A stretch of DNA of 64,000 nucleotides from Escherichia coli (GTDB lineage: Bacteria > Pseudomonadota > Gammaproteobacteria > Enterobacterales > Enterobacteriaceae). A program made the translations under genes and the position numbers. The number at the start of each line of letters is the position of its first letter. Positions within the stretch are counted from its first letter, which is position 1. The notes under the pieces were generated by a model. The model did not search any database and was not told where the DNA came from. It worked only from the letters and a program-made list of their open reading frames with translations. The stretch is from assembly GCF_024700885.2 (NCBI RefSeq), contig NZ_CP117014.1; one strand, written 5' to 3'. Below, piece after piece: positions 6,896 through 26,922 of this stretch.

Positions 6896-6902
6896 GGCCC
6901 GC

Positions 6903-8178: not shown

Positions 8179-8179
8179 G

Positions 8180-8590
8180 ATGAACGCTATAACCAAAGAA
8201 CGTATCAAATTATTCATTAAAAATCCGCTTGATAACGGACTTACTCGTGGCGAACAAATGGAACTGGCACGAATTGCTCTGGCATCGCTGGAAGCAGAGG
8301 CAGTTATGTTCTGTATATCAGGACAAAATGTAGATTCAGAAGAACATGTATCAACCAGCAAAGCGGTTGTTGATGCCTGGGTTGAAGAATGGAATCAGGT
8401 TGACGGAAGTCCTGGCGAACCACTGTACAAAACTATGCCACTCTACTATCACGCTGCCTTGCCAGCGCCGGTAGTGCCGGATGAAATGTATTGGCAGGAT
8501 GCGCCAGTTGAAGGCAGCAGCAAAGCGGCTGCATACGCTACAGGCTGGAACGCCTGCCGCGCCGCTATGCTTCATGGGAAAGGAGAGTGA
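8180..8590 (+). CDS. Hypothetical protein, N-terminal paralog of the 8866-10386 protein
   Basis: First 40 aa (MNAITKERIKLFIKNPLDNGLTRGEQMELARIALASLEA) nearly identical to 8866 ORF; about 90% DNA identity over roughly 120 bp. Confidence 0.45.
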   Translation: MNAITKERIKLFIKNPLDNGLTRGEQMELARIALASLEAEAVMFCISGQNVDSEEHVSTSKAVVDAWVEEWNQVDGSPGEPLYKTMPLYYHAALPAPVVPDEMYWQDAPVEGSSKAAAYATGWNACRAAMLHGKGE

Positions 8591-8591
8591 T

Positions 8592-8855
8592 ATGGCAACT
8601 TTAACAAAAAAAGAACGGGCATGGTTGAACGAATTACAGGACGTTCTTGATCGCTGTCCATCACCGAAAAAAATTGGTTTTTACACCATTGGCGATAAAA
8701 GCATTTACCTGTATGACCTGCGCCGCATGGATGAAATCATGGAGACTCTTGATAATCGTTCGTCGATGGATTGGTGTGTTGCTGTTCATGATATGAATGC
8801 AGGGTTTGATGAAAAGATTTTGTTCCCCTCATCAGTTGAAAGCACTGCGGGTTAA
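8592..8855 (+). CDS. Hypothetical small protein
   Basis: ORF starting MATLTKKERAWLNEL at an ATG directly after the previous stop. Confidence 0.35.
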   Translation: MATLTKKERAWLNELQDVLDRCPSPKKIGFYTIGDKSIYLYDLRRMDEIMETLDNRSSMDWCVAVHDMNAGFDEKILFPSSVESTAG

Positions 8856-8865
8856 GGAGTAACAC

Positions 8866-10386
8866 ATGACCACTATTACCAAAGAACGTATTGAATTGTT
8901 CATTAAAAATCCGCTTGAAAACGGGCTTACCCGTGGTGAACAAATGGAACTGGCACGGATTGCGCTGGCATCGCTGGAAGCAGATCCAGTTAAACGAGTT
9001 AACTCAGATCAGATGCGCCGAGTCTGCTTAGAAGCTAATCGCCATTTAGATAAATATGACGCGATGGCGAAAGAGGTAAATAAGTTGCTTGGACGCATCG
9101 CCCCGCCAGCGCCGGTAGTGCCGGAAGAAGCAACTCCGGAAAACGTAGAAATGCTCTCTGGCTATGTTTCCACGTACAAATTAACCGATAGCGAGCGCGA
9201 TATTGCTGCCGAAATATGGAACGCCTGCCGCACCGCCATGCTTCAGTCCGGAAACTTTCGGGAAAGCAAGAATTCGTCAACCAATAATTTTCGGGAAATC
9301 GCGGAAACGTCAACCAACTATCCGGTAATTCCTAGTGAGGTGTTGTCAGCAATCCTGAAGTTTGCCAGAGTTCGTGCCGATTTCGATGATTTTGACGGTG
9401 ACAGGCGAGGTATCGGTGATTGTCTGGATGAGGCCGAGCAAGAGCTTATCGTTACCATTAACAAATATGCCAGTCAGTTGGCAGCAGAACCGATAGCGAC
9501 TAATGACGTTCGAGAGCAAACAGCCGTTCCGCCAATACAGGCTGATGTCGCGCAAGCAATTGAAAATCTCAAGCAGAAGTTAGTGGAATGCAATCGCTAT
9601 AACTACTGCGCAGATGCAGTTAAAGGCGTAGAGGATGCCAGCCGCGTCTTGGCACTCCAAAATCAAAATATGTCAGCACCGGTAACGCCGGAGGCCATTG
9701 AAAACGCAATTGAATATATCCGCAGTATCGCTTTTCACATCGATGAAGACGATTACCACGGCAAGCATATTGCGTATTTCATGCGACAAGCATTGGCCTG
9801 GCTGGAAGGGCATTCATGCAGCGACGACAGGCTGGGTAAGGCCGACAATCAACCCGCATCTGGTAACCAGTCTGCCGAATCCAATCGCGGTAATGAGTGG
9901 ACCGGCAATCCTGATATTGATAACGCCATCATCATGCTCGACCGCATAGATACGGCGGAAAGTTGCGATGATGACCGTATTGAGGCCGTTAAGGCTGTGT
10001 TGCGTAGACTGGCAGGCAACTATCCGGATATTCCGGATAGTTCGGTGCCAGCGCCAGGAAAGGGCGTCACCGGTGAACGTATCCGCATTAAGCCGCATGT
10101 TTATCGCGAACTGGTTAACCGTCTCCACGATACAGCGATCAAGTGTGCTGGCACCCAGCAATTACGAGAAAGAATTAGCCGTGTTTTGGGCGACGTTATT
10201 ACACCAGATCATCATAAACAAGCCGAGAAAAGTGGCCTGGAAAGGTGTCGCCTTGAGGCGGCATTAAACATTAAGCCGGGGCATACGCTTGGCATTATTG
10301 ATGCACTATTGGTTCATAAGATGGCCAGGGCTTTATTGCCGCTGGTGGCTGAAAAGCATGAGGTGGACCATGCCAACGAAAGCTGA
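8866..10386 (+). CDS. Hypothetical 506-aa modular protein
   Basis: N-terminal module shared with 8180 ORF; C-terminal PHVYRELVNRLHDTAIKCAGTQQLRERI module shared with 1139-1750 protein; RBS AAGGAG. Confidence 0.45.
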   Translation: MTTITKERIELFIKNPLENGLTRGEQMELARIALASLEADPVKRVNSDQMRRVCLEANRHLDKYDAMAKEVNKLLGRIAPPAPVVPEEATPENVEMLSGYVSTYKLTDSERDIAAEIWNACRTAMLQSGNFRESKNSSTNNFREIAETSTNYPVIPSEVLSAILKFARVRADFDDFDGDRRGIGDCLDEAEQELIVTINKYASQLAAEPIATNDVREQTAVPPIQADVAQAIENLKQKLVECNRYNYCADAVKGVEDASRVLALQNQNMSAPVTPEAIENAIEYIRSIAFHIDEDDYHGKHIAYFMRQALAWLEGHSCSDDRLGKADNQPASGNQSAESNRGNEWTGNPDIDNAIIMLDRIDTAESCDDDRIEAVKAVLRRLAGNYPDIPDSSVPAPGKGVTGERIRIKPHVYRELVNRLHDTAIKCAGTQQLRERISRVLGDVITPDHHKQAEKSGLERCRLEAALNIKPGHTLGIIDALLVHKMARALLPLVAEKHEVDHANES

Positions 10387-10654
10387 ATTACAGGTGCGCG
10401 TAGATGAGCTTGAAAAAGAGAACGCGAGCCTCAAAAAAATGCTGTCGCGGGCGGAAAGGGAATTATCAGGCAAATTATTGCCAGAAGAACTGCCACCAGC
10501 AGATATACCTGATCGAGTGTCCTGGTGGATGAAGTATTTCCGTGCACCGTGGGAGGCGTTTTGGTGCTACGACCATCGCAGATGGTGTGATGAGCTTGAT
10601 AGCAGTTTCCCCTATTTTGCAGAAGGGAACTCTTGCCCTGAATGTAGGCGTTAA
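10370..10654 (+). CDS. Small Cys-motif protein (tandem paralog 1)
   Basis: Ends WCYDHRRWCDELDSSFPYFAEGNSCPECRR; paralogous to next ORF. Confidence 0.4.
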   Translation: MPTKAELQVRVDELEKENASLKKMLSRAERELSGKLLPEELPPADIPDRVSWWMKYFRAPWEAFWCYDHRRWCDELDSSFPYFAEGNSCPECRR

Positions 10655-10959
10655 TGATGACCGGCGAGCTTTATTTTAAAATGGCACGGGAGCGGCGTGT
10701 GCATCTGGATCGGATATTTCATCTCCAGAAGAGAGTAGAAGAACTGGAACGTCGTCTGAACTGTTATCCTGTTGATATGGTGTCTGCAATACCGCCGATT
10801 CCAATAGAAATGCAGATCCGCCTATGGATGGAAGAATATGGAATGCCGTGGGAGATATTTTTCTGCTTCGACCATAAACAGTGGGTAGATGAGCTGGATA
10901 ATAGTTTCCCATATTTCACAGAGAACACATGCCCAGTATGCAGGAAGAACGGAATATGA
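10654..10959 (+). CDS. Small Cys-motif protein (tandem paralog 2)
   Basis: Ends FCFDHKQWVDELDNSFPYFTENTCPVCRK. Confidence 0.4.
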   Translation: MMTGELYFKMARERRVHLDRIFHLQKRVEELERRLNCYPVDMVSAIPPIPIEMQIRLWMEEYGMPWEIFFCFDHKQWVDELDNSFPYFTENTCPVCRKNGI

Positions 10960-11480
10960 CAAAATTTGGAAAGCTGGAAGCTCATTTGCTAACTCGCAAC
11001 TACCGCCATGATATACACCCATATAGACAGTGGATCGATGAAAGCGAAGGAGTAGTTACATTCCCTCTCTACAGGTTTGATGGGATGTTGGCTGGGTATC
11101 AGACATATAGACCAGGTGCACCTAAGCAGCATAGCAATCCGAAGATGGCCCGGTATTTCACGCGATCACACGGCAGACAGTTACTTTGGGGAACCTATCT
11201 TCCTTTAAAAGATGGCCCAATATGGATAACTGAGTCTATTTTTAAGAGCGCAGCTGTACACAACGCGGGCGGCAATTCGTGGGCGCTGTTAGGTTCAACT
11301 TTCTCCGCAGGATTACGCCGTCAACTTGCGATGCTGCCGTATGACTTTCGCGTAATAGGTGACAATGATGCGGCTGGTGAATCACTTGTGAAGTCTTTCG
11401 GAAAAGGTTTTGTGGCCCCGGATCTTGACGAGCTACAACCACATGAAGTGTCTCATTTGATTTTTAGCCATAGCCAATAA
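10956..11480 (+). CDS. Stand-alone Toprim-domain protein
   Basis: ESIFKSAAVHNAG ... VIGDNDAAGE resembles the Toprim conserved Glu and DxD motifs; ATGA overlap with the previous stop. Confidence 0.45.
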   Translation: MTKFGKLEAHLLTRNYRHDIHPYRQWIDESEGVVTFPLYRFDGMLAGYQTYRPGAPKQHSNPKMARYFTRSHGRQLLWGTYLPLKDGPIWITESIFKSAAVHNAGGNSWALLGSTFSAGLRRQLAMLPYDFRVIGDNDAAGESLVKSFGKGFVAPDLDELQPHEVSHLIFSHSQ

Positions 11481-11690
11481 GCATCTCTCCCCTTTGAGGT
11501 CACAATTAGTGGCCTTAAACAATGTGTTTTCTACCTCGATTTAGCCTTTATTATCGTTTTGCATTTCTCTAATCCGGGCAACGAGGTTACGCTGATTCGT
11601 TGGTGATGAATAGTAGCAAAGCGCACAAAATCATCTGCGGTGGTTGATGTACGTAACGCGTTTGCACCAAATGTGTCTCTTTAATGTATA

Positions 11691-11706
11691 CTGTATAAAT
11701 GAACAG
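11691..11706 (+). promoter_or_regulatory. LexA (SOS) box upstream of humD
   Basis: CTGTATAAATGAACAG fits CTGT-N8-ACAG, 22 bp upstream of the humD ATG. Confidence 0.6.
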
Positions 11707-11727
11707 TATTATTGAGGTGAAAACGCT

Positions 11728-12117
11728 ATGGGCTTCCCTTCTCCTGCGGCGGACTATGTTGAAAGCCGAATTTCTCTTGATCAGCAACTAATCAGGCATC
11801 CATCAGCGACATACTTCATGCGGGCGGCAGACAGCCATCACCGTGAGGGAATATTGCAGGGTGCTTTGCTGGTGGTTGATTCTTCGCTTACTCCAGTTGA
11901 TGGTTCGCTGCTTGTGTGCGCTATGGAGGGAGAATATCGCGTAAAAAGATACCGGAAGTATCCGCGCCAGCACCTGGAGGATTTAAGCACCGGGAAGAAA
12001 GAGGCGTTACCAGTAGATGACGATGGTTACACGGGTAGTAATGCTGTTTTTGGTGTGATCACCCACATTATCAATGACGCCAGGGGCGGTGAATTTGATG
12101 ATAGTCCTGCTATATGA
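11728..12117 (+). CDS. humD: HumD (UmuD-prime homolog, S24 peptidase-like)
   Basis: 129 aa starting MGFPSPAADYVE; P1 synteny humD-phd-doc; LexA box upstream. Confidence 0.65.
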   Translation: MGFPSPAADYVESRISLDQQLIRHPSATYFMRAADSHHREGILQGALLVVDSSLTPVDGSLLVCAMEGEYRVKRYRKYPRQHLEDLSTGKKEALPVDDDGYTGSNAVFGVITHIINDARGGEFDDSPAI

Positions 12118-12251: not shown

Positions 12252-12674
12252 ATGAGTTCGTCTGCTTTTGTCACTGTTGTCACTGGAGTAAGCGTTTTTG
12301 TCCTAGGTCGACTCATCATCAAGGGGGTTGAGTCTTACATTTCATTCAAGGAACAGTTGGGGGAAATATCGCATCTGTTATTGTCTAACCAAGCAAAGCT
12401 ATCGAATCCCCGCTCTGACTTAAAACAAGAAATCATCCATGATTTGAAAGATGCGGCAGCACAGTTACGGGTGAAGTACGAACTATTACCTTTCTATATC
12501 AAAATGTTACACATCGGTTTTCGCCTTGTTCCATCAGAAACTGAAATTCGTAAAGCGGCGCAAGAATTGAATCTGATAGCCTCGATACATGATGGTAAAA
12601 CCGGAGAGCTGCCATATGAGCACATAGCCAAGATTGGATTACTGCTCAGAATTCCAACCACTTATTCTGCTTAA
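12252..12674 (+). CDS. Moron: membrane-anchored protein inserted between humD and phd
   Basis: N-terminal TM helix FVTVVTGVSVFVLGRLII; own TATAAT at 12226-12231; AT-richer than flanks; P1 has humD directly followed by phd. Confidence 0.5.
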   Translation: MSSSAFVTVVTGVSVFVLGRLIIKGVESYISFKEQLGEISHLLLSNQAKLSNPRSDLKQEIIHDLKDAAAQLRVKYELLPFYIKMLHIGFRLVPSETEIRKAAQELNLIASIHDGKTGELPYEHIAKIGLLLRIPTTYSA

Positions 12675-12782
12675 TCCCAGCAATTGCAAGACTGCATCTC
12701 GAGGATTTAAGGCACCAAGAAGTGGTATTCAGCATCATTAAAACCTATAATTGCGTACACATAACGAGCACACGAGGTGTTT

Positions 12783-13004
12783 ATGCAATCCATTAACTTC
12801 CGTACCGCGCGCGGCAACCTTTCTGAAGTGCTCAACAATGTTGAAGCCGGGGAAGAGGTTGAAATCACCCGCAGAGGCCGTGAGCCAGCAGTAATTGTCA
12901 GCAAGGCTACTTTTGAAGCCTACAAAAAAGCGGCGCTGGATGCCGAATTTGCATCCCTGTTTGACACCCTGGACTCCACCAACAAGGAACTGGTTAACCG
13001 ATAA
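12783..13004 (+). CDS. phd: Phd antitoxin
   Basis: [73 protein letters not shown] matches my memory of P1 Phd across the full length. Confidence 0.85.
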
Positions 13005-13384
13005 TGAGGCATATATCACCGGAAGAACTTATTGCGCTTCATGATGCGAATATAAGCCGCTACGGCGGCCTGCCGGGAATGTCAGATCCGGGTAGGGCAG
13101 AGGCCATTATCGGGAGAGTTCAGGCCAGAGTTGCCTACGAAGAGATCACCGACCTTTTCGAAGTCTCCGCCACCTACCTGGTGGCTACGGCGAGAGGGCA
13201 TATATTCAATGATGCCAATAAGCGTACCGCGCTAAACAGTGCGCTGCTATTTCTACGCCGTAACGGTATACAGGTATATGATGATCCCGTGCTGGTGGAG
13301 CTTGCAGTGGGGGCTGCAACTGGTGAAATCCCCGTATCTTCAGTAGCGAAAAAACTACGTGAACTATATGGTTCCAATATTTGA
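13004..13384 (+). CDS. doc: Doc toxin (Fic-fold kinase)
   Basis: 126 aa with [10 protein letters not shown] Fic-type motif; near-identical to recalled P1 Doc; ATGA overlap with phd. Confidence 0.85.
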
Positions 13385-13385
13385 A

Positions 13386-13415
13386 AAGAAGCCCGCTCAA
13401 CCAGGCGGGCTTCTT
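13386..13415. terminator. Bidirectional rho-independent terminator between convergent doc and 13420 gene
   Basis: AAGAA-GCCCGC-tcaaccag-GCGGGC-TTCTT hairpin with flanking A/T runs. Confidence 0.55.
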
Positions 13416-13419
13416 ACTA

Positions 13420-14514
13420 TCACTCAATGATTTTTTCTGCTGTCAGCCAGCTAATTTCTTGCCTGTCTTTCGGCGGTTTTAGCATGTGGGCGTATTCAGC
13501 GACATTCTCCCACGGAATTGTTTTTGCCCACTCAACGATAGCATTGTGATCTGCAGTGAAGAGTGGAATGGTGTGCGATTTCAACCATTCTAATGTCGTG
13601 ACGCCATGTTTTTTGGCGTGGTGCTGCGCATGATGCCGGGCTATCACTCGTAATGGTATTGTCCATTCACTACCATCAGGCATCGAAAAGCGCATTGTCT
13701 TCGGCATATCTGATTCAAGAACAGCCTCCCTAATACCAGGGAACTCACCAAGAATCATACGACGATAGTCATCACTATTTCGCCCGCCATACCTTTCGGC
13801 AAAATGATCAAGATATTCTTGGGTAATAAATGGTGAATCCTCCGCACTCAGCTTAATGGCTTTATATACACCACTCGGATTATCTTCAGCTAAAGCACGT
13901 CCATGATGTGAATCATAAAAAAAGCCTATTTCCTCTGGTGACGGAATTGAAGTGAGCAATATGCGTGAATCACCACTAGTCATGCTTGCCCACACAATGC
14001 TGTATGCCCGATCGCTGATATGTGCGGAATCCACAATAATGAATAAAAGATGGTCGGCGTAGTGACCTGCAATGCTATCTTCATAGTTAAGGCGGAAGTT
14101 ACAAAAGCACATTCCCCAAAATTCATTGAACATCAGACCGCTATCACCGACCTTAAAATACTCAATGATAAAAGGTTGTTTTTTCAGCAATGCCTCCCAA
14201 CATTGCCACACATATGCAACAATTCCTCTTTTGCAAACATTTGATTTTGGATAAACAATTACTGTCCGGGAATCAGGATACATAATCGTATAAAGGGTAC
14301 TAATAACAGCAAGCACTTGCGGTCGTCCGATCCCATACGGAGTGGTGACAGTAGCTTTTGCATTATTGGGCTGTATAGCTTCAACAATTTGTTGTTGCTG
14401 GTGGCTTAAATCAATATCAAACAATTCTTTTGCTGCCAGTACCCAATTGTCTTTATATTTCTCCACCAGCGACAGCCAGCGCGGATCTTTATAAATATTG
14501 CTCTTAGTCGCCAT
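13420..14514 (-). CDS. Terminase large-subunit (PacB) paralog with degenerate Walker A/B motifs
   Basis: Aligns with PacB (19603-21111): DPRW, SHQQQQI, FYDSHH, SPF, EYGGR shared; Walker A GHGTGKS replaced by PYGIGRP, Walker B ILDEAS by IVDSAH; divergent shorter C-terminus. Start set at MATKSNIYKD (ATG 14514). Confidence 0.6.
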   Translation of the reverse strand: MATKSNIYKDPRWLSLVEKYKDNWVLAAKELFDIDLSHQQQQIVEAIQPNNAKATVTTPYGIGRPQVLAVISTLYTIMYPDSRTVIVYPKSNVCKRGIVAYVWQCWEALLKKQPFIIEYFKVGDSGLMFNEFWGMCFCNFRLNYEDSIAGHYADHLLFIIVDSAHISDRAYSIVWASMTSGDSRILLTSIPSPEEIGFFYDSHHGRALAEDNPSGVYKAIKLSAEDSPFITQEYLDHFAERYGGRNSDDYRRMILGEFPGIREAVLESDMPKTMRFSMPDGSEWTIPLRVIARHHAQHHAKKHGVTTLEWLKSHTIPLFTADHNAIVEWAKTIPWENVAEYAHMLKPPKDRQEISWLTAEKIIE

Positions 14515-15271
14515 CTGCCACTTCCTTAACTTCTTCTTTGGCCTGTTCTGCAATCGCCGCACGGCATTTCGCCCTGGCTGTAGCGATTGCTTCAGCTCGC
14601 ACATCGTCTGGAATCGTTGACGTGATATACATATCCAGTTCTTCGGCACGGAATACTGTTTGGTCCAGATATTCGCGTAGCATCCAGGTAAATTCGAAAT
14701 CACACGCGATAATCTCTGCGCTACCTTCTGCACCATTTGGGAAATGAATAAATGCCTGTTTAGCCAAACCGATAACACGACATGCGGTTGCCAAAACAGC
14801 GACAACTAGGTTTACATTTTCACACGCTACGGGCTGGTTAACGCCGGAGATTACTCCATTTAACTGTCGGTTATATGGAAGGTAGTTTGAGATGCGTTCT
14901 ACGCGCCATGTGCCAGTCAGGCTGCCATTTTTAAATATAATTGGTGTAACGGATAGCCCAAGCTCGCGTATAAGTCGTTGCGCTATAGCAGGATCATTAA
15001 ACAGGTCTAATGCTACACATTCGAAAGACTGCGCAAGGGCAAACAGTTCTTCCAGAGAGTAGTCTTTGCCCCTGGCGGTGATGTAACGACGAACGCCGCT
15101 GTCTGCATCACTCCATATAGCTACGCCATGCTCTTCATTCAGCTCTTCATTAAAGCCGAGATACGTCATGATAGTGCGTTCAATCGTGTCAAACGGCAGT
15201 GACATGTCGGCGTTAACAGCCACCAGCAGGCCATTACGCAAGCGGTATTGAATTGTTTTAGTGCTTTCCAT
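14504..15271 (-). CDS. Hypothetical 255-aa protein
   Basis: ORF tightly coupled within the six-gene minus-strand operon. Confidence 0.4.
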   Translation of the reverse strand: MESTKTIQYRLRNGLLVAVNADMSLPFDTIERTIMTYLGFNEELNEEHGVAIWSDADSGVRRYITARGKDYSLEELFALAQSFECVALDLFNDPAIAQRLIRELGLSVTPIIFKNGSLTGTWRVERISNYLPYNRQLNGVISGVNQPVACENVNLVVAVLATACRVIGLAKQAFIHFPNGAEGSAEIIACDFEFTWMLREYLDQTVFRAEELDMYITSTIPDDVRAEAIATARAKCRAAIAEQAKEEVKEVADGD

Positions 15272-15277
15272 GTCAAA

Positions 15278-15718
15278 TCACTCCACAACAAACCAGTCAC
15301 AGGCCAGCAGGTCGCCAACTGAAGGCACCCACGGAACAACTACACCTTGTGCATTTTTTAAGGCGAAATAAGCACCATACGGAACGAGGTCGCCGGGGAA
15401 ATATCCCTTAATGGCTTCCATTCGTGCCGGGTACTGTCCTTCAGGAACCAGCCAGCAGAATTGGTTTTCGCCGTTCCACCCGCGTCGAGCAACTTTCTTG
15501 CCTTCCTTCAGCCACATCAGCGCGTCTGAAAAGTCGGCTGCTTCAAGGTCGATTTCTTCTTGCTGGGTGGTGATGCCACCAGCAGAAATAGTTACGCTCC
15601 CGGTAAGATTAATCATCACGCCGTTGTCATCCGTAATGATGACCGTGGTTCCATTTTTTTTGTGAGCTTTGTATTTGGGACGGAACTTAAAAAGCTCTTT
15701 CGTTGCCATGTTATTCAT
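15278..15718 (-). CDS. DUF2829-like protein (Tad2-like candidate) with N-terminal extension
   Basis: C-terminal half FSDALMWLKEGKKVARRGWNG...VPWVPSVGDLLACDWFVVE fits my recollection of the DUF2829 signature. Confidence 0.45.
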   Translation of the reverse strand: MNNMATKELFKFRPKYKAHKKNGTTVIITDDNGVMINLTGSVTISAGGITTQQEEIDLEAADFSDALMWLKEGKKVARRGWNGENQFCWLVPEGQYPARMEAIKGYFPGDLVPYGAYFALKNAQGVVVPWVPSVGDLLACDWFVVE

Positions 15719-15732
15719 AGTCTTTTCTCTGC

Positions 15733-16227
15733 TTATAACTTTTCGTACTGAAGCGGTGAACGCTTAATTTCAAAGTGGCCTTCCGATGTGCTACCAAAGC
15801 CACCAGCACCACGCTCCGTTTCGTTGAGTTCCTCAACCTCGACTAGTGAGACTTGTTCAACACGCTCAAAAATTCCTTGCATGACAGCCATTCCAGGCTT
15901 GAGACAAACGCCTTCCCCGCCGGGATCAGTAATCAGTTTTGCCATGATTTCGCCGCGATAATCGGAGTCGATAATTCCTACGCAGTTAGCCAGGCGAGTA
16001 TGTTTTTTGCAGCCCAATCCTGATCGCGGATAGAGTTTCAGACACCAGCCGGGCGGGATCTCCATAGCCAGTCCGGTATACACCCACCAGCTTGAGGAAA
16101 TTGCACCATTGCTATCGACGCATGGTTTTATTTCAACAGCCTCAAAATCCATCGCCGCCGATCCGGAGGTGGCATAAGCTGGAAGTTTTGCTGCCGGATG
16201 TAGGCGTTTCACTTTTACGTAAATCAT
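15733..16227 (-). CDS. dut: dUTPase (trimeric dUTP diphosphatase)
   Basis: Motifs SAAMDF, PRSG, GIIDSDYRGEI and RGAGGFGSTS. Confidence 0.75.
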   Translation of the reverse strand: MIYVKVKRLHPAAKLPAYATSGSAAMDFEAVEIKPCVDSNGAISSSWWVYTGLAMEIPPGWCLKLYPRSGLGCKKHTRLANCVGIIDSDYRGEIMAKLITDPGGEGVCLKPGMAVMQGIFERVEQVSLVEVEELNETERGAGGFGSTSEGHFEIKRSPLQYEKL

Positions 16228-16706
16228 TGTTTTTTAGCTCTCTGCGTGAAGGTGTAAACCCGACGTTTGATATGTGGAACGGTAGGAACAGGAAGACAGG
16301 AACTTTCAATAACTCCTTGCTCATCCAGCGATCGCACCGCCCGCAAGAACTGCGACGTGTCGCCGCCAAACTGGCGGGCATAGGTGCTGCCGTTATGAAG
16401 TATTTGAGCTATTACCCGAGTTTTTGTCTGGCTGTCACGATATGCGAATAGCCGCACGGCCTCTTCTGGCGCAATCGCTAACTGATAGCCTTTCCCGGCA
16501 CGGTGTCGAATGAATCCATGCGCCAGTAGGTTTTTGAGTTCGTTACGAGTGCGAACAGATCCGTAACCCAGGAAGTGTGGATTGATAACGACTGGCTTAA
16601 ACCATTCCGTAGGTGCTTTAGCTAATAGAGCTAACAGCTTCCCGGATAATTCTGGATAGGAAGACGGGTAACAATTCAGAGATGGGTAATAAGTTTTCAC
16701 CGACAC
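16224..16706 (-). CDS. Hypothetical 160-aa protein
   Basis: ORF with 4-bp overlap to the downstream gene. Confidence 0.35.
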   Translation of the reverse strand: MSVKTYYPSLNCYPSSYPELSGKLLALLAKAPTEWFKPVVINPHFLGYGSVRTRNELKNLLAHGFIRHRAGKGYQLAIAPEEAVRLFAYRDSQTKTRVIAQILHNGSTYARQFGGDTSQFLRAVRSLDEQGVIESSCLPVPTVPHIKRRVYTFTQRAKKQ

Positions 16707-17041
16707 CCCCTTGCAGGATATCGACCGGCATTAGTATCCGGTGCAATAAAGCCGGTAGTGGGGCGAGTGAAAGCGAGATTAATCTTCTCGACCATAGTGC
16801 GATAATTTTCCTGATAGTGGGCCAGGAGTTTTTCGGCGGCAATGATGGTTACTTTCCGGACGTAGCTTTCTGCTTCCTCCAGATTTCGCCAGTTTTTTTC
16901 GAGGGTAAACACAGGGACGGCCTCAAGCCCGGTCATGATGCCGAACACAACGACAGCATGACTGTTCTTAACACCAGCGGCGAAGGTTACGGTGTAACCA
17001 TCCACCTTGAAGCGTCTTGATTCCGTGATTTGACTCTGCAA
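16697..17041 (-). CDS. Hypothetical 114-aa protein, first gene of the operon (P1 c8 position)
   Basis: ORF preceded on its upstream side by the TGTTAGAA operator-like motif at 17099-17106. Confidence 0.35.
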   Translation of the reverse strand: MQSQITESRRFKVDGYTVTFAAGVKNSHAVVVFGIMTGLEAVPVFTLEKNWRNLEEAESYVRKVTIIAAEKLLAHYQENYRTMVEKINLAFTRPTTGFIAPDTNAGRYPARGCR

Positions 17042-17098
17042 AGCACCCTCCTAAATAGGCGAGGGTACTTTACAGCAAAGGCGTTAATCTAAAAAGAT

Positions 17099-17106
17099 GT
17101 GTTAGA
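17099..17106 (-). promoter_or_regulatory. Operator-like motif (TGTTAGAA) upstream of the 17041-13420 operon
   Basis: Same motif family as 937-944 and others. Confidence 0.4.
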
Positions 17107-17114
17107 AATTTAAT

Positions 17115-18143
17115 TTACGAATCCATCAGGCGGCTATTAGCCCCCACAGACACGCCGCCACGGCGAAGATACCGCATAAGTGTTTCCGGTTTCTTCCAGG
17201 TTCCTTCCTGCATGATCTCCACCATAGACACCTGCTTTTCAGCCATATCAATAGCGGCCCCGACGCGTGCACTATGCCCGGTCCACGTCCGGTATCTTCC
17301 TTTGTTTGGCGTAGCATCTCTTTTATTCAGCAACACCCAGGCGTCGCTGAATATTTTCTCCATTGCAGGTGCAGTAAGGGGCGTTGTCGTGATCCTGGCC
17401 TTATTGCTACGGTGTATCGGCGGGAACAGCACTGCGTCAGGATGTTCGCGAAGCCCGGAAACATCCAGCCAGTCATTCAGCACAGCGGTAGTGCGACGGG
17501 AAAGCACCTTATCAAGCCCGGCGGCGGTCGTTATTGTCTTCGTGTGTGAAATATGTAGCGTGACAGTGTCACCTGTTTGATCCAGATCTCCTACACGAAT
17601 ACGCGAGATTTCCGACATACGCATCAGCGTATTGTATGCAACAAAGAGAAAAGCCCGGTTGCGCAGGTCCACCAGCCGTTCTGACCTGGACAACAGGACG
17701 TCGAGCAGTTTCAGATCGTCCCACCGAAGCGGTATAGCCTGGCCTGTTCGTTCGCCTTTTTCAGTTGCCGCTTCGCGCCGGATGCGCCGCATAGCCAGAG
17801 AAACACTTTTATCATCCGAAAGTGGCGGAAGGCCACAATGCGAAAGCAGCATATTCAGCATGGCGTAGTGCTTATCAATGGTGGTCGAAGCCAGATCGGC
17901 ATCATGCAGCTGAAGAAAATACTCGCGGGCCATTTCTGGTGAGATCGGAAACCAGGCAAGCTGGCGAGCGTGACACCAGCGCGCCCATGAATGAAACACC
18001 AACCGGAGGTCGCGCAGAGTATTCGGCGCATAAGCCCCCTGGTCATTCATGAACCGCATAAAGTTTTCTGCAGCCTCCTGGTACTCTTTGCCAATGTTGC
18101 GCAGAAAACCACCGGAGCTGCCAGAGATAATTAATTCACTCAT
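17115..18143 (-). CDS. dre: Cre-family tyrosine recombinase (Dre-like)
   Basis: 342 aa; AVSLAMRRIRRE, AYNTLMRMSEISRIRVGDL, WTGHSARVGAAIDMA parallel recalled Cre (AVSLVMRRIRKE, AYNTLLRIAEIARIRVKDI, WSGHSARVGAARDMA) at roughly 40% identity; adjacent rox-type site. Confidence 0.85.
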   Translation of the reverse strand: MSELIISGSSGGFLRNIGKEYQEAAENFMRFMNDQGAYAPNTLRDLRLVFHSWARWCHARQLAWFPISPEMAREYFLQLHDADLASTTIDKHYAMLNMLLSHCGLPPLSDDKSVSLAMRRIRREAATEKGERTGQAIPLRWDDLKLLDVLLSRSERLVDLRNRAFLFVAYNTLMRMSEISRIRVGDLDQTGDTVTLHISHTKTITTAAGLDKVLSRRTTAVLNDWLDVSGLREHPDAVLFPPIHRSNKARITTTPLTAPAMEKIFSDAWVLLNKRDATPNKGRYRTWTGHSARVGAAIDMAEKQVSMVEIMQEGTWKKPETLMRYLRRGGVSVGANSRLMDS

Positions 18144-18295
18144 GAAACTATTTAACCTCTATATACAGATAACGCTACGCGAAAAATATAAAAATGACAG
18201 GGTAGCTATAAGTTAATTTTCAAGATTCAAGCCTTTGATTCGAGGCGCGTATTTTCAGTGATGTCAATACTGATCATCTACCCATAATTATAGCC

Positions 18296-18327
18296 TAACT
18301 TTAAATAATGCCAATTATTTAAAGTTA
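18296..18327. other. rox-type recombination site (14-bp inverted arms, 4-bp spacer GCCA)
   Basis: TAACTTTAAATAAT-GCCA-ATTATTTAAAGTTA, perfect arms; arm begins ATAACTT-like as in loxP; 150 bp upstream of the recombinase start. Confidence 0.8.
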
Positions 18328-18426
18328 TAAAATGCCGATTTTTTTTAATCCATCATAGATTGATGATGACCAGTAACACGTTGCCTTCATGGTCTTTAAT
18401 TTGCGAAGTGTGGTTTCTACGGTTGG

Positions 18427-18521
18427 TTTTCTAAAATTGATGACAAAAAATCACAGTTCGATCCTTTACTCACTCTGTTATTCGACATAAATTTGTCATA
18501 GTAATTTTATGTTAGAAAACT
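18427..18521 (+). promoter_or_regulatory. Two operator-like motifs upstream of the 18538 gene
   Basis: TTTTCTAAAATTGATGAC at 18427-18444 and TGTTAGAAAACT at 18510-18521. Confidence 0.4.
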
Positions 18522-18537
18522 AAATCGAGTAGGAATA

Positions 18538-19575
18538 ATGAGTAAGAAGTCGATCGAGAAAGAGTACAAACGGTTCCTGCAAACCGCTGAACGGTGGAAA
18601 GAGCTGGTGGTCGCAAACTCTGTTTTCCATGATACCAGTTATGCTGGCGAGGAATTCCGCCATGTTGCATTAACGCATGACCAAAACATATTAGAAGAAG
18701 CTGAAAAATGTCTTGCTGAATGGAAAGCCTTCGTTGACATGTGCCGCGATGCCGACGGCAAAGCGTCGAACATTGTTGAGTCTGTATATTCTCCGATCCC
18801 ATTCATCATTGAGGACACCAATCAAAGCACGCATGTCGTTGTGCAAAGCGCTACAACAACACGTACATTTACACGTGAACAATTGCTAAAAAAATACGAC
18901 AAAATCATAAAGAAAAGCCTTAAAAATAGGGTTTTTTCTCAAATCGTAGGTGATCTTGAAGAAGAACAGCGCTTCTTTGAAGCTGAGCCTGAAGGCGAGA
19001 TCTACCGGGCGCGTAAAGAGGCATATACAGATGTTGTGCTGACAACAAACATCGAAGGCAGCAATGCCCTTTCTCGCTTTAGAGTTGGCGCACATGGTGC
19101 ATTGGTTTTCGCAAGACTACCGAAGACAACGATCCCCGTTGTCAATAATGTTGGTGAACGCCGGAGCATTACAATTTATTCTGGCGTCGAATCGGTACCT
19201 TGCAGCCTTCTCGGCGATTTTAACTTATATCGTGTTCGTGACCTGGAAAAACACCAGCCAAGCTATGTTGCGAAGTCGTACATCTTAAGGAACATCGATA
19301 TTCGCAATGAAAGCCTTAAGCAGAAATCCGCTAAGATGCTGGAGGATGCCGATCCGGCTATTCGCCATATCATTGAGCGTAAGATACGTACATCACGTGA
19401 AGCAATGGCAAGGCTGGATAAAATGGATCTGGAATTGTTAGACGTAATGATGGCCTCTGGAGACGACCTGACCGGCATTAAACTGAATGAAGCTCGTAAA
19501 AAATACGGCAAAGCAATCGAAGAACGTTACGGATACACATTCCCCCAAACGCAGTACGCCGCGAAGCTCTGGTAA
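18538..19575 (+). CDS. Hypothetical 345-aa protein, candidate immunity repressor (C1 position)
   Basis: Lies between pacB and the rox/recombinase, transcribed opposite to pac as c1 is in P1; two operator-like motifs upstream. No sequence match to C1 verified. Confidence 0.35.
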   Translation: MSKKSIEKEYKRFLQTAERWKELVVANSVFHDTSYAGEEFRHVALTHDQNILEEAEKCLAEWKAFVDMCRDADGKASNIVESVYSPIPFIIEDTNQSTHVVVQSATTTRTFTREQLLKKYDKIIKKSLKNRVFSQIVGDLEEEQRFFEAEPEGEIYRARKEAYTDVVLTTNIEGSNALSRFRVGAHGALVFARLPKTTIPVVNNVGERRSITIYSGVESVPCSLLGDFNLYRVRDLEKHQPSYVAKSYILRNIDIRNESLKQKSAKMLEDADPAIRHIIERKIRTSREAMARLDKMDLELLDVMMASGDDLTGIKLNEARKKYGKAIEERYGYTFPQTQYAAKLW

Positions 19576-19584: not shown

Positions 19585-19604
19585 GCCCCGCATCGCGGGG
19601 CTTT
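19585..19604. terminator. Bidirectional terminator between convergent 18538 gene and pacB
   Basis: GCCCCGC-atc-GCGGGGC followed by TTT. Confidence 0.5.
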
Positions 19605-21111
19605 ATATATCCAGATCCGGCATTTCGATATCCGCCAGAACCTGATCTCGGAAAGTTGCCATTTCGGCACCAATATCTTCATTAGCAGGCACATAGTCCA
19701 CCAGCATAGTGAAGCAGTAGGTATCCCATCGGTCAGGCGATTTGATGTTTAGCTTTTGCCGCATGTGCTCTTTGCGCATCATCGCCATTTTCCCTTCTTC
19801 ATTCAGTAAAAAGGGGATTTTTGACGCTTGCTCTGCCGTTTTAGGGTCACTGTCTATCCGCATACGCCCTGACTTTATGGCATCACGCGCCATAATGTTT
19901 GCGTAGGCACGCTGATTAACAAATCGCTCCCTGTCTTTGTTCGCAAACATGGGTTTTCCCCACCGAATACGTACCGGGTTCGCACCACGACGCACCAACT
20001 GCGCACACGTATCAGAACCAAAACCATCAGCATCAACCGCGATTGTTATATTCGGGTATTTTTCCGGCGTACATTCGTTATATATGAAGTCAGCAAAGGC
20101 CAATGGGTCCATAGTGCCAGGCATCTCCATTACCTTAAAGTTAACAACGCGCCGCTTATCCCTGTGACCTGATACCTTGCAGATGTTGAGGACCGACTTA
20201 TCTCGCCCATTACCAACGTCAGCCGTTGCCACCCATCCCCAGTTTTTCTCCAACAACACCTTGCGGCGAGCAGAGCGATCGCATTCATCACGACCAAGCA
20301 AATAGCCGTTAATTTCTCGTGGGAACTGACCAAGCACCTTGACCATGTACTCAATAGAATCGCGCCCACCATATTCCAGAAGCTTCTCCTTGATGAATTG
20401 TGGTGTGACGAACGGTGATTCTTCCGAGTTAAGAACAATTGCTGTCCAGATCCCTTTCGGGTTGTCTGGGGTTTTTGCTCGAGAATGGTGCGAATCGTAG
20501 AAATAACCACTTGGCCTTGTTGGCTGGGATAGCATCAACATCCGGTTATCTTCTTCAGTAAGAGCACCGGTCATTACGCCGATCGCCTTATCAGATATAC
20601 CAGATGCTTCATCCAGAATTAGAAGCAAATGTGCCGCGTGTTCCCCCGCCAGCGCTTCTTCGTTGCCGAGTCGATAACCTTTGCAGAGAACTTCCCAAAT
20701 CCCCTTACGGGAGCGCTCATAAAACATGGTGTCAGAGAGGACAAAATAGGTCTGCAACCACCCATGACGCTTAACTGCATTCGCCCAATACTGTTTAACG
20801 TATTTGAATACGCCTGTTTTTACCTGGCCTATCTTGTTAGCAACAATGATGACACGGGCATCGGGGAACAGGATCATAAAAATCAACAGCAACATCGCGG
20901 TAAGGGACGACTTCCCCGTTCCGTGTCCGGACGTGACGGTCGTCCTACTCCCCGTTTCCTGCACTGACTGAATGATCTGCTGCTGCTGGTGGGAGGGGAA
21001 CATCCCAAAAATATCGACTACAGCCTGGGTAAAGTTGTAGCGGTATTTGATTACCATATCGCGCCAGCGTGGATCGCTGGTGACGCATTTAATCTTGCGC
21101 CCGCCAGCCAT
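19603..21111 (-). CDS. pacB: Terminase large subunit (PacB-like)
   Basis: 502 aa; Walker A SGHGTGKSS, Walker B LLLILDEAS; downstream of pacA with overlapping stop/start. Confidence 0.75.
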   Translation of the reverse strand: MAGGRKIKCVTSDPRWRDMVIKYRYNFTQAVVDIFGMFPSHQQQQIIQSVQETGSRTTVTSGHGTGKSSLTAMLLLIFMILFPDARVIIVANKIGQVKTGVFKYVKQYWANAVKRHGWLQTYFVLSDTMFYERSRKGIWEVLCKGYRLGNEEALAGEHAAHLLLILDEASGISDKAIGVMTGALTEEDNRMLMLSQPTRPSGYFYDSHHSRAKTPDNPKGIWTAIVLNSEESPFVTPQFIKEKLLEYGGRDSIEYMVKVLGQFPREINGYLLGRDECDRSARRKVLLEKNWGWVATADVGNGRDKSVLNICKVSGHRDKRRVVNFKVMEMPGTMDPLAFADFIYNECTPEKYPNITIAVDADGFGSDTCAQLVRRGANPVRIRWGKPMFANKDRERFVNQRAYANIMARDAIKSGRMRIDSDPKTAEQASKIPFLLNEEGKMAMMRKEHMRQKLNIKSPDRWDTYCFTMLVDYVPANEDIGAEMATFRDQVLADIEMPDLDI

Positions 21112-22475: not shown

Positions 22476-22864
22476 AAAGCAACACCACGCTTTTTAACGG
22501 CGGCATTCCACAGCTTATTCGCCATGTCCACCAGCTCTCGTTGCTCTTTTCGCGCCTGTTCGACTGATTTCCTGCTACAGTTTTTAACCAGTAAACTGCC
22601 ATATTCAGGGGTTCGCCCACGCACCTTGAACTGATATCCGTTCAGGCCATGCAACCAGTATTTTCGTGGGTAAACACGATCATCAAGCTCACAGATTGCC
22701 CTGCTTGAACGAACAAAATGACGAATGATGTTAGTTACACTTACTCGTGAAACATGGAGATGAGGGTATTTTTCTTTGGCGAGAGTGGTAATTTCAGTGA
22801 CTGTCAGATAGCAGTCAGCCCTGATCATGATATCCGCAATTTCTGCGCTGCTGATTTGTTCCAT
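22472..22864 (-). CDS. Hypothetical 130-aa protein, positional analog of late-promoter activator Lpa
   Basis: Immediately upstream of pacA as lpa is in P1; operator-like motif TATTAGAA at 22941-22955 upstream. Confidence 0.3.
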   Translation of the reverse strand: MEQISSAEIADIMIRADCYLTVTEITTLAKEKYPHLHVSRVSVTNIIRHFVRSSRAICELDDRVYPRKYWLHGLNGYQFKVRGRTPEYGSLLVKNCSRKSVEQARKEQRELVDMANKLWNAAVKKRGVAL

Positions 22865-26920: not shown

Positions 26921-26922
26921 CA

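What the first reader, a model, noticed from the sequence alone, without database searches (positions are those of the whole stretch)
13420..17106. Six-gene repressor-controlled operon combining dUTPase, a DUF2829 (Tad2-like) protein and a catalytically dead terminase paralog
Six tightly coupled minus-strand genes (overlaps or gaps of 14 bp or less) begin behind an operator-like motif at 17099-17106 and sit where P1 has only c8 between cre and ref. The content (dUTPase, candidate cyclic-nucleotide sponge, pseudo-terminase, three unknowns) looks like an early-expressed counter-defence or host-takeover operon rather than structural genes.
Basis: partly seen in the sequence, partly recalled or inferred. 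Interest (0 to 1): 0.72.

Follow-up and report, generated by a model that had tools for sequence, protein, structure and literature searches.

The report
Phage-plasmid early operon with dead terminase
A six-gene block in a D6-like, P1-family phage-plasmid sits behind a repeated repressor-type DNA motif and combines a lysogeny-gene homologue, a dUTPase, a homologue of a protein that soaks up bacterial immune signals, the unknown IsaA and a copy of the phage's DNA-packaging ATPase that has lost its catalytic residues; most of it is already in published phage D6, but I found no description of the inactivated, fast-diverging terminase copy.

Summary
Six minus-strand genes (17041 to 13420) are packed with overlaps of 4-11 nt or gaps of 6-14 nt and end at a strong hairpin terminator.

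It has 9 exact copies in the window against 0.03 expected. Copies lie upstream of homologues of P1's C1-controlled genes (ref, lpa, repL, c1), so it is very probably the D6-type C1 operator.

- Gene 1 is the homologue of P1 c8.
- Gene 2 is an orphan.
- Gene 3 is an intact trimeric dUTPase.
- Gene 4 carries a Tad2 domain closest to ModTad2, with all four SPO1 Tad2 ligand-contact residues kept.
- Gene 5 is IsaA.
- Gene 6 is a true paralogue of the element's own PacB ATPase domain (37% identity). It lacks the Walker A lysine, the Walker B glutamate and the nuclease domain.

Genes 1-5 are phage D6 orf117-113; gene 6 is variable cargo. Its ATPase-like domain is 52% identical between two elements whose PacA, PacB and flanking genes are 97-99% identical.

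Early, counter-defence use is a reasonable inference but has not been shown. Only the Tad2 gene belongs to a family with a proven counter-defence role.

The parts
17098..17116 (-). Putative D6-type C1 operator (core TTTCTAACACA at 17098-17108, A/T-rich left half AAATTAAA up to 17116), starting at the last base of the dre stop codon (17115-17117)
   Evidence: Core 11-mer: 9 exact copies in the window against 0.03 expected. Shared extended consensus. Other copies lie upstream of ref, pdcB, c1, lpa and repL homologues. Invariant in D6 and five other D6-like loci although nearby bases vary. Binding by C1 has not been tested.
17036..17075 (-). 15-bp RNA hairpin in the g1 leader that pairs the Shine-Dalgarno (17046-17052) and the TTG start (17039-17041)
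   Evidence: MFE -25.6 kcal/mol, z = -5.1, 0 of 200 shuffles fold as well. The stem is conserved in six D6-like loci with one one-sided U.G to U-A change and a variable loop; there are no compensatory changes. Absent from the P1 c8 leader.
16697..17041 (-). g1, 114 aa: homologue of P1 C8 (D6 orf117)
   Evidence: phrog_1968 at 4e-48. P1 C8 hits the same family at 6e-53. Same position directly downstream of the cre/dre gene. No Pfam, PDB or NCBIfam hit.
16224..16706 (-). g2, 158-160 aa: orphan protein (D6 orf116)
   Evidence: phrog_6669 at 1e-96, unknown function. No Pfam, NCBIfam, PADLOC or PDB match. Homologues occur only in D6-like elements, always between the c8-like gene and dut.
15733..16227 (-). 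g3, 164 aa: trimeric-type dUTPase (D6 orf115)
   Evidence: NF001862 scores 121.5 bits against a cutoff of 103. phrog_135 at 5e-62. 48 solved dUTPases match at E <= 1e-10, and the PRSG, GIIDSDYRGE and GGFGST motifs are visible in the alignment.
15278..15718 (-). g4, 146 aa: 57-residue N-terminal remnant plus Tad2 (DUF2829) domain at residues 58-146 (D6 orf114)
   Evidence: PDB 9eib ModTad2 at 8e-21, about 46% identity over 89 residues; SPO1 Tad2 at 1.4e-9. W81, N82, W131 and D137 align with SPO1 Tad2 W25, N26, W73 and D79. It is an internally deleted form of the 281-aa SJ46 protein. Neighbouring alleles are called PF11195 Tad2-like.
14504..15271 (-). g5, 255 aa: IsaA homologue (D6 orf113)
   Evidence: 48% identity to P1 IsaA, E 3e-89. 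phrog_2326 at 1e-133. AF2 model pLDDT 85, but no informative fold match.
13420..14514 (-). g6, 364 aa: non-catalytic PacB (large terminase) ATPase-domain paralogue (residues 1-260) fused to an unknown C-terminal domain of about 100 aa; absent from D6
   Evidence: 37% identity to the window's own PacB, E 6e-57. AF2 pLDDT above 94 for residues 1-260; the best PDB folds are TerL ATPase domains. Walker A is GIGRP where PacB has GTGKS, and Walker B is VDSA where PacB has LDEA/VDEA. No nuclease domain. The C-terminal domain also occurs as stand-alone proteins of about 100 aa, phrog_17928.
13384..13413 (-). Intrinsic terminator (GAAGCCCGC-loop-GCGGGCTTC then TTCTTTTC), between g6 and convergent doc
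   Evidence: Terminator scan hit at 13406-13391; sequence read directly.

Best explanation
This is an accessory, non-structural operon of a D6-like P1-family phage-plasmid. It is the c8 transcription unit downstream of the Cre-like recombinase gene, enlarged with cargo.

Regulation (inferred). The element's C1-type repressor binds the AAATTAAA-TTTCTAACACA site starting at the last base of the dre stop codon and keeps the unit off, or low, in the plasmid prophage. After infection or induction the six genes are transcribed as one message up to the terminator at 13384-13413. A strong leader hairpin that buries the g1 ribosome site adds a translational check on the c8-like gene.

Products.
- g1 acts like P1 C8 (annotated as putative lysogeny establishment).
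- g3 hydrolyses dUTP and so keeps uracil out of replicating phage DNA.
- g4 forms a Tad2-type oligomer that sequesters a TIR-made ADP-ribose-derived alarm signal. His-ADPR of type II Thoeris is the best guess, because ModTad2 is the closest relative. This would blunt Thoeris-type abortive infection.
- g5 (IsaA) and the translationally coupled g6 act together or in parallel, by binding rather than catalysis. g6 keeps the PacB ATPase fold, the Q motif and the P-loop glycines, but has no catalytic lysine, no catalytic glutamate and no nuclease domain.

Shown here: gene order and coupling; motif over-representation and placement; family memberships; loss of the catalytic residues; cassette-like divergence of the g6 ATPase-like domain.

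Inferred: repression by C1; early timing; a single transcript; ligand binding by g4; any activity of g1, g2, g5 and g6.
For: Operon anatomy.

Motif.
- 9 copies against 0.03 expected, and the third most frequent 9-mer family of the window after two overlapping Chi-containing 9-mers.
- Copies lie upstream of ref/orf88, pdcB, c1, lpa and repL. In P1, ref, mat and ssb carry annotated C1 operators.
- The site is invariant across D6-like loci while adjacent bases differ.

Gene identities.
- g1 is the C8 family.
- The dUTPase scores above the curated cutoff.
- The Tad2 domain keeps its ligand residues.
- IsaA is nonessential for P1 lytic growth, EOP 0.86 (PMC10695390).
- No product matches a virion family.

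Context in relatives.
- In P1-like phages the Tad2-like/isaA/dead-PacB genes sit in the ssb unit, which has an annotated C1 operator.
- In another P1-like contig a short dead PacB directly follows a ref-like gene. Both are early-gene contexts, not the pacA-pacB unit.

g6 is a working protein.
- Intact ORF in three clades at 51-66% identity.
- dN/dS is 0.27 in the ATPase-like domain.
- Confident fold.
- 162 plasmids carry a full-length copy in addition to PacB.
Against: - No sigma-70 consensus promoter was found in the 73-bp dre-g1 spacer. Only a weak TTAAAT-16-TAGATT can be read by eye, and its -10 is not conserved in other D6-like loci.
- There is no terminator between dre and g1, so part of the expression could be read-through from the strong dre promoter at 18287-18314 in lysogens.
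- The P1 C1 operator consensus has no match within 3 mismatches anywhere in the window. The operator assignment therefore rests on analogy of position, not on known binding data.
- P1's own c8 has an annotated promoter but no annotated C1 operator.
- g4 carries an N-terminal extension that solved Tad2 proteins lack.
- Nothing links the dUTPase, IsaA, g2 or g6 to defence systems directly (PADLOC: none).
Confidence: 0.55

Rival explanations
1. Prophage-expressed maintenance unit. The six genes are simply the distal part of a constitutive dre transcript (seven genes) made in the plasmid state. The repeated motif at 17098-17108 has no repressing role here, or only attenuates. The products would then serve the lysogen (nucleotide hygiene, lysogeny stabilisation, interference with other phages) rather than early lytic growth.
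For: - A near-consensus promoter, TTGGCA-16-TATAAT, lies upstream of dre.
- No terminator lies between dre and g1, and no consensus promoter lies in the spacer.
- P1 c8 has no annotated C1 operator.
- g1 belongs to a family annotated for lysogeny establishment.
Against: - The motif starts at the last base of the dre stop codon and is invariant across D6-like loci.
- Elsewhere it marks homologues of the P1 C1 regulon.
- Counter-defence activity of Tad2-family proteins has been shown in the context of phage infection, by co-expression or engineering into phages.
- The Tad2-like/isaA/dead-PacB genes sit in the C1-controlled ssb unit in P1-like phages.
Confidence: 0.2
2. g6 (with IsaA) is a packaging modulator rather than a counter-defence protein. 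As a non-catalytic PacB look-alike it would bind PacA, PacB, the pac site or the portal. It could delay or tune pac cleavage by the element's own pacase, or poison the packaging motor of a co-resident or superinfecting P1-family phage.
For: - It is a true paralogue of PacB across the whole ATPase domain.
- It keeps the fold.
- Mixing inactive subunits into ring ATPase motors is known to stall them (general knowledge of terminase motors).
- P1-type and D6-type plasmids occur in the same host species.
Against: - The ATPase-like domain is 52% identical between two elements whose PacB (499/502) and PacA (323/326) are almost identical. It does not co-vary with its own terminase.
- It is never next to pacA-pacB.
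- It is about equally distant (33-37%) from D6-type and P1-type PacB, so there is no obvious specific target.
Confidence: 0.2
3. The block is a late or structural gene cluster, or g6 is a decaying pseudogene left from a pacB duplication.
For: Some records annotate g6-type genes as 'terminase large subunit'. The D6-type late promoter is not known, so a late promoter cannot be formally excluded.
Against: - No similarity to virion proteins.
- isaA is nonessential in P1.
- No P1-type Lpa box lies in or before the operon.
- g6 has an intact 364-366 codon ORF in three diverged clades, dN/dS 0.27-0.34 and a high-confidence fold.
Confidence: 0.04

Closest known systems
Phage D6 orf117-orf113 (NC_050154, 87343-89889), downstream of dre
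   Same: 97.8% nucleotide identity over 14531-17200. Same five genes in the same order and with the same overlaps, the same spacer motif and the same hairpin.
   Different: D6 has no sixth gene. After the isaA-like gene comes pdcA on the other strand. The window is 100% identical to E. coli plasmid NZ_CP074704.1. In D6 the genes are annotated only as hypothetical, dUTPase or DUF2829.
P1 c8 (between cre and ref) and the P1 ssb-isaA unit
   Same: g1 and P1 C8 fall in one PHROG and share the position after cre/dre. g5 is 48% identical to P1 IsaA. P1-like genomes have ssb-isaA-[g6-like 51%]-hxr, or ssb-[N-domain+Tad2]-isaA-hxr.
   Different: In P1 the c8 unit is a single gene, and the isaA module sits about 20 kb away behind the Ossb operator. 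In reference P1 the slot after isaA holds IS1 plus the unrelated isaB. Here all modules are fused into one unit together with a dUTPase and g2.
Tad2 (Thoeris anti-defence 2; DUF2829/PF11195), especially ModTad2 (PDB 9eib)
   Same: Domain homology at 8e-21, about 46% identity. W-N, W and D ligand-contact residues are conserved. The beta2-beta3 loop has the same length as in ModTad2.
   Different: g4 has a 57-residue N-terminal extension, the remnant of a larger domain. Its ligand is untested. The loop that forms the second pocket differs between alleles of otherwise identical operons.
PacB, the P1-family large terminase subunit
   Same: Same ATPase-domain fold, 33-37% identity over about 255 residues. 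The Q motif and the P-loop glycines are kept.
   Different: The Walker A Lys, Walker B Glu, the motif III threonine (SQPT replaced by SIPS) and the whole nuclease domain are missing. A new C-terminal domain has been added. The gene lies in an early accessory unit, not beside pacA.
Phage anti-defence gene clusters (for example the anti-Gabija locus of SPbeta-like phages, and anti-CRISPR loci)
   Same: A conserved frame with variable small cargo genes, at least one proven counter-defence family, nonessential genes, and allele swapping confined to particular genes.
   Different: Only one of the six genes belongs to a proven counter-defence family. The first gene is a lysogeny-control homologue.

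Membership tests
Trimeric dUTPase (Dut) | Full-length match above the curated family threshold | tested here: met
   NF001862 scores 121.5 bits (cutoff 103) and TIGR00576 scores 119.2 (cutoff 102.55).
Trimeric dUTPase (Dut) | Conserved catalytic motifs (PRSG, G-I-D-x-D-Y-R-G, C-terminal GFGST P-loop-like motif) | tested here: met
   LYPRSGLG, GIIDSDYRGEI and GGFGSTS align with solved dUTPases.
Tad2 / DUF2829 (PF11195) | Homology of the ~90-residue domain | tested here: met
   9eib at 8e-21, 8v3e at 1e-20, 8sme (SPO1 Tad2) at 1.4e-9. Pfam Tad2-like is assigned to alleles of the same gene.
Tad2 / DUF2829 (PF11195) | Ligand-contact residues of SPO1 Tad2 (W25, N26, W73, D79) | tested here: met
   g4 W81, N82, W131 and D137 align with them (residues named in bioRxiv 10.1101/2023.05.01.538930).
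Tad2 / DUF2829 (PF11195) | Small stand-alone protein (about 89-104 aa) forming a homotetramer | tested here: not met
   g4 is 146 aa, with a 57-residue N-terminal remnant of a larger domain. Oligomeric state is not testable here.
Tad2 / DUF2829 (PF11195) | Sequesters gcADPR, His-ADPR or cyclic nucleotides and relieves Thoeris or CBASS defence | not testable with these tools
   Needs binding assays and plating on defence-carrying hosts.
Large terminase subunit (TerL/PacB) | ASCE ATPase domain fold of TerL | tested here: met
   The best Foldseek PDB matches are TerL ATPase domains of P74-26, Sf6, T4, HK97 and D6E. 37% identity to the resident PacB.
Large terminase subunit (TerL/PacB) | Walker A G-x-G-K-[ST] lysine | tested here: not met
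   GIGRP in g6. The lysine position is R, E, Q, H, M, C, T or I across nine dead-clade members, against invariant K in PacB-type proteins.
Large terminase subunit (TerL/PacB) | Walker B hhhhDE catalytic glutamate | tested here: not met
   IIVDSA in g6. The pair is DS, NS, EA, DA, PN or HA in the clade, against DE in PacB.
Large terminase subunit (TerL/PacB) | C-terminal RNase H-like nuclease domain | tested here: not met
   The alignment ends at residue ~260. The nuclease motifs of 500-aa homologues (DVG..RD.S, D..G.G, SPD..D) have no counterpart. The C-terminal ~100 aa belong to a different, unknown domain.
Large terminase subunit (TerL/PacB) | Encoded next to the small subunit (pacA) in the late packaging unit | tested here: not met
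   pacA-pacB are at 19603-22475. g6 follows isaA and is convergent with doc.
P1 C8 family (phrog_1968) | Profile match and position directly downstream of cre | tested here: met
   g1 at 4e-48 and P1 C8 at 6e-53, to the same profile. Pairwise BLASTP is only weak, 24% identity, E 0.054. The position is shared.
IsaA (phrog_2326) | Full-length homology to P1 IsaA | tested here: met
   48% identity, E 3e-89. 53 invariant columns in 17 sequences.
C1-repressed operon of P1-family phages | 17-bp P1 operator ATTGCTCTAATAAATTT at the promoter | tested here: not met
   No match with up to 3 mismatches anywhere in the window.
C1-repressed operon of P1-family phages | A repeated asymmetric site shared with the homologues of known C1-controlled genes of the same element | tested here: met
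   TTTCTAACAYA lies upstream of ref/orf88, pdcB, c1, lpa, repL and g1.
C1-repressed operon of P1-family phages | Site bound by the element's C1 (PF27008) and transcription derepressed on induction | not testable with these tools
   Needs EMSA or ChIP and transcript mapping.

The most novel reading that the evidence does not exclude
The inactivated PacB ATPase-domain proteins are a family of terminase mimics used in genetic conflict. There are about a dozen 50%-identity clusters. Most are 230-270 aa, and some, like g6, are fused to extra domains. Made early and without catalytic activity, they would act as a decoy or inhibitor. The target could be host immune receptors that recognise the large terminase (Avs-type sensors) or a rival phage's packaging motor. 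An alternative is that they hold a nucleotide-derived signal in the crippled ATP pocket. The ATPase-like domain is exchanged as a cassette because the target keeps changing.
Probability: 0.2. Interest if true: 0.8.

Novelty: new variant of a known kind. Interest (0 to 1): 0.5.

Why it matters
- P1-family phage-plasmids are common in E. coli and Salmonella and carry resistance genes, so what lets them establish in defended hosts is of practical interest.
- The locus offers a natural, compact test bed: one repressor-site-fronted unit that joins a lysogeny gene, a nucleotide-hygiene enzyme and a Thoeris-signal sponge homologue of the ModTad2 type in an enterobacterial phage.
- The most useful lead is the non-catalytic PacB paralogue. 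It occurs in 162 of 748 PacB-carrying plasmids, always outside the packaging unit. Its ATPase-like domain diverges to 52% identity while the real terminase stays 99% identical.
- If it proves to be a terminase mimic aimed at immunity or at competitors, it would be a new class of phage conflict protein, and a warning against automatic 'terminase large subunit' annotation.
- If it is not, the finding remains an ordinary accessory operon of a known phage group.

Tried and rejected
- P1 C1 operator consensus: 0 hits within 3 mismatches, so the P1-type operator is rejected.
- P1 late-promoter box ACAAGTGAYT, derived from LPpro, LPlyz and LPmat: not enriched, and none lies in or before the operon. 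It is uninformative for D6-type late promoters.
- Sigma-70 scan: nothing in the dre-g1 spacer.
- Pfam: no hit for g1, g2, g5 or g6.
- PADLOC: nothing credible.
- NCBIfam: only the dUTPase.
- PDB sequence search: nothing for g1, g2, g5 or g6.
- g6 C-terminal domain: low model confidence. It matches only phrog_17928, of unknown function.
- P1 IsaB as a remnant of a g6-type gene: rejected, no similarity.
- Rfam on 12500-18700: nothing.
- Literature search for a PacB paralogue or terminase decoy: nothing relevant.
- The D6 genome paper, the P1 genome paper and the Dre paper are not held. Any operator or transcript data in them could not be used.
- Contexts of further short dead-PacB proteins were too short or uninformative.

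Full report
WHAT THE WINDOW IS

The region is 100% identical to E. coli plasmid NZ_CP074704.1. Over 14531-17200 it is 97.8% identical to phage D6. D6 is a P1-family plasmid prophage whose Cre homologue is Dre.

The neighbours fit that identification:
- dre lies at 17115-18143 (minus strand).
- The 345-aa C1-type repressor lies at 18538-19575.
- pacB and pacA lie at 19603-22475, and lpa at 22472-22864.
- phd-doc lie at 12777-13384, convergent with the block under study.

THE OBSERVATION

Six minus-strand ORFs run from 17041 to 13420. Their junctions are overlaps of 10 (or 4), 4 and 11 nt and gaps of 14 and 6 nt. The sixth gene starts at the ATG at 14514; the mechanical ORF extends further upstream. 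A GC-rich hairpin with a T run follows its stop codon.

THE MOTIF

- It is the core of TTTCTAACAYA, which has nine exact copies against 0.03 expected. No shuffle gave more than one.
- TTTCTAACA is the third most frequent 9-mer family in the window, after two overlapping Chi-containing 9-mers.
- Aligned sites share an A/T-rich left half, giving roughly AAATTAaT-TTTCTAACAyA. Several sites have an inverted partner, GTTAGA, about 15 nt upstream.

Where the sites lie, using the D6 annotation:
- between ref and the divergent orf88 operon (936);
- at the 3' end of ref (276), where P1 has Omat;
- upstream of pdcB (3788);
- 20 nt before c1 (18508);
- upstream of lpa (22941, one mismatch);
- upstream of repL (40303);
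- upstream of g1 (17098-17108).

Ref, mat and ssb carry annotated C1 operators in the P1 record. By my own knowledge of P1 biology, lpa, kilA-repL and c1 are also C1-controlled. The P1 operator consensus itself has no match within three mismatches, so this would be a heterospecific operator. The site before g1 is invariant in D6 and five further D6-like loci, although bases a few positions away differ. I take it to be the D6-type C1 operator, at about 70% confidence. Binding is untested.

PROMOTER QUESTION

- The consensus scan finds no sigma-70 promoter in the 73-bp spacer and no terminator after dre. It finds a near-consensus promoter upstream of dre.
- By eye, a weak TTAAAT-16-TAGATT places the operator core in the spacer. 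Its -10 is not conserved in other loci.
- It is therefore open whether C1 represses a weak internal promoter or blocks read-through from dre.
- A 15-bp hairpin (17036-17075) buries the Shine-Dalgarno sequence and the TTG start of g1. Its energy is -25.6 kcal/mol, z = -5.1. It is conserved in D6-like loci and absent from P1. This points to an extra translational control.

THE GENES

g1 (114 aa) and P1 C8 both match phrog_1968 end to end, at 4e-48 and 6e-53. Both lie directly after cre/dre. The block therefore does not merely sit where P1 has c8. It is the c8 unit, enlarged.

g2 has no detectable relatives outside D6-like elements and no family assignment.

g3 is an intact trimeric dUTPase, above the curated cutoff and with its motifs present.

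g4 carries a Tad2 domain at residues 58-146.
- The best solved relative is ModTad2 (8e-21, about 46% identity). SPO1 Tad2 follows at 1.4e-9.
- The four residues that contact gcADPR in SPO1 Tad2 (W25, N26, W73, D79) align with W81, N82, W131 and D137.
- Other Tad2 proteins also bind cyclic nucleotides (abstract).
- The N-terminal 57 residues are the remnant of a larger domain that is present in SJ46 (281 aa) and in other D6-like alleles of 216-233 aa.

g5 is IsaA, 48% identical to P1 IsaA.
- isaA knock-down does not reduce P1 plating; EOP is 0.86 (PMC10695390).
- A good AF2 model (pLDDT 85) found no informative fold neighbour.

g6 is treated in the next section.

THE TERMINASE PARALOGUE

Relationship to PacB:
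- An exhaustive HMMER search gave 793 relatives. Most are about 450-570 aa and match g6 residues 1-265 in their N-terminal halves.
- g6 is 37% identical (E 6e-57) to the PacB encoded 5 kb away in the same window. It is 33-37% identical to PacB of D6, P1, P7 and SJ46.
- The AF2 model has pLDDT above 94 for residues 1-260. Its best PDB neighbours are TerL ATPase domains.

Loss of catalytic features:
- PacB-type proteins have SGHGTGKS, hhhhDEASG and SQPT, followed by the nuclease motifs. g6 has TPYGIGRPQ, IIVDSAH and TSIPS, and no nuclease domain.
- In nine members of the same clade the lysine position is R, E, Q, H, M, C, T or I. The DE pair is DS, NS, EA, DA, PN or HA.
- The variability at these positions shows that catalysis is not under selection.
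- A rough motif count over the 150 best cluster representatives finds 93 with both motifs (median length 485 aa) and 13 of at least 200 aa with neither. Most of those 13 are 230-270 aa.
- 'Catalytically dead terminase paralogue' is therefore supported at sequence and fold level. Enzymology is untested.
- The Q motif and the P-loop glycines remain invariant, so residual nucleotide binding cannot be excluded.

The extra domain: residues 267-364 form a separate domain. It also occurs as stand-alone proteins of about 100 aa and at the end of phrog_17928. Its function is unknown.

g6 IS FUNCTIONAL AND UNUSUAL IN ITS EVOLUTION

- Full-length g6-type genes are present in 162 of 748 plasmids that carry a PacB-type gene, always as a second copy.
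- They fall in three clades: 95-100%, about 66%, and about 51% identity to g6.
- In P1-like genomes the 51% form follows isaA, between ssb and hxr. In reference P1 that slot holds IS1 and the unrelated isaB.
- In another P1-like contig a 263-aa form directly follows a ref-like gene.

Comparison of the window with a second six-gene D6-like element (L019/L021):
- Everything from dre to doc is 96-100% identical at nucleotide level except two stretches. These are part of g4 (the N-domain indel and the Tad2 beta2-beta3 loop) and the ATPase-like domain of g6, which is 50-66% identical.
- g6 codons 1-255 are 52% identical at protein level, with dN/dS 0.27. Codons 256-364 are 98% identical.
- PacB (499/502) and PacA (323/326) of the same two elements are nearly identical.
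- The dead ATPase-like domain is thus a swapped cassette that diverges independently of the terminase it derives from. It shares this behaviour with the ligand loop of the Tad2 gene.
- This argues against a decaying pseudogene and against tight co-evolution with the resident pacase. It fits a protein whose partner is external (host or competitor), but does not prove it.

DISTRIBUTION OF THE OPERON

- The five-gene core (c8-like, g2, dut, Tad2-like, IsaA, then convergent doc) is conserved in D6 and in many D6-like plasmids.
- The six-gene form occurs in a minority: 43 of 242 matching plasmid records cover at least 80% of the query.
- D6 has pdcA in place of g6.

INTERPRETATION

The best-supported reading is a repressor-site-fronted, non-structural accessory operon expressed when repression is lifted. 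It has one proven-family counter-defence gene (Tad2-type sponge), one nucleotide-hygiene enzyme, one lysogeny-control homologue and three proteins of unknown action. One of those three is a non-catalytic PacB mimic.

Its anatomy and family calls are right. Its functional label rests on one gene plus association, and its expression timing rests on an inferred operator.

Rivals are constitutive read-through expression from dre, a packaging-modulator role for g6, and late or structural function or pseudogene status (disfavoured).

NOVELTY

Five genes are already in published D6. Tad2-like, dUTPase and IsaA are members of known families.

New here, as far as the held literature shows:
- recognition of the D6-type operator motif and its regulon-like distribution;
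- the identity of g1 with c8;
- the family of inactivated, domain-swapping PacB paralogues in early accessory contexts.

I rate it a new variant of a known kind, of moderate interest.

Noticed in passing
window 17036-17075 (-): A perfect 15-bp hairpin in the g1 leader sequesters both the AGGAGGG Shine-Dalgarno and the TTG start codon. It is conserved in D6-like loci with a variable loop and is absent upstream of P1 c8. It may be a translational switch or a processing site.
   Followed up: partly
window 23365-23940 (-): A second, very divergent DUF2829/Tad2-like gene (191 aa; Pfam PF11195 4.4e-9 at residues 103-190) lies two genes upstream of lpa (D6 orf6). It lacks the W-N pair of ligand residues (it has SW-P) and is only 24% identical to g4.
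   Followed up: partly
window 916-946, 3768-3798, 22941-22971, 39086-39116: Several copies of the operator-like motif have an inverted partner (GTTAGA ... TCTAAC, about 15 nt apart). This resembles the paired, bivalent C1 operators of P1. The g1 site is single.
   Followed up: partly
window 26756-26766 and 26912-26922 (+): Two operator-like copies 156 bp apart lie in a stretch of about 0.9 kb with no annotated gene in D6, between the tRNA genes and pmgS. An unannotated small gene or RNA under repressor control may lie there.
   Followed up: no
whole window, e.g. 13290, 14396, 15220, 15576, 15800: The Chi octamer GCTGGTGG is strongly over-represented: the 9-mer TGCTGGTGG occurs 17 times and is the most frequent 9-mer. 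Several copies lie inside the operon.
   Followed up: no
window 53770-55170 (within ORF 53131-55740, -): Five to nine copies of a repeat with a period of about 300 bp (sub-period about 168/132 bp) lie inside the long tail-fibre-like ORF.
   Followed up: no
g6 residues 267-364 (window 13420-13716): The C-terminal domain of g6 also exists as stand-alone proteins of about 100 aa in metagenomes and as the last ~100 residues of the 511-position family phrog_17928. Its function is unknown and the AF2 confidence is low.
   Followed up: partly
window 15381-15455 (g4 residues ~88-112): The beta2-beta3 loop of the Tad2 domain, the region that forms the second ligand pocket in ModTad2-type proteins, is replaced by a different and 8-residue longer loop in an otherwise 96-100% identical operon (L019). 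This suggests allele-specific ligand range.
   Followed up: partly
window 1-12000: Only about half of this stretch aligns with D6. It contains cargo absent from D6, for example a 506-aa ORF at 8866-10386, which I did not examine.
   Followed up: no
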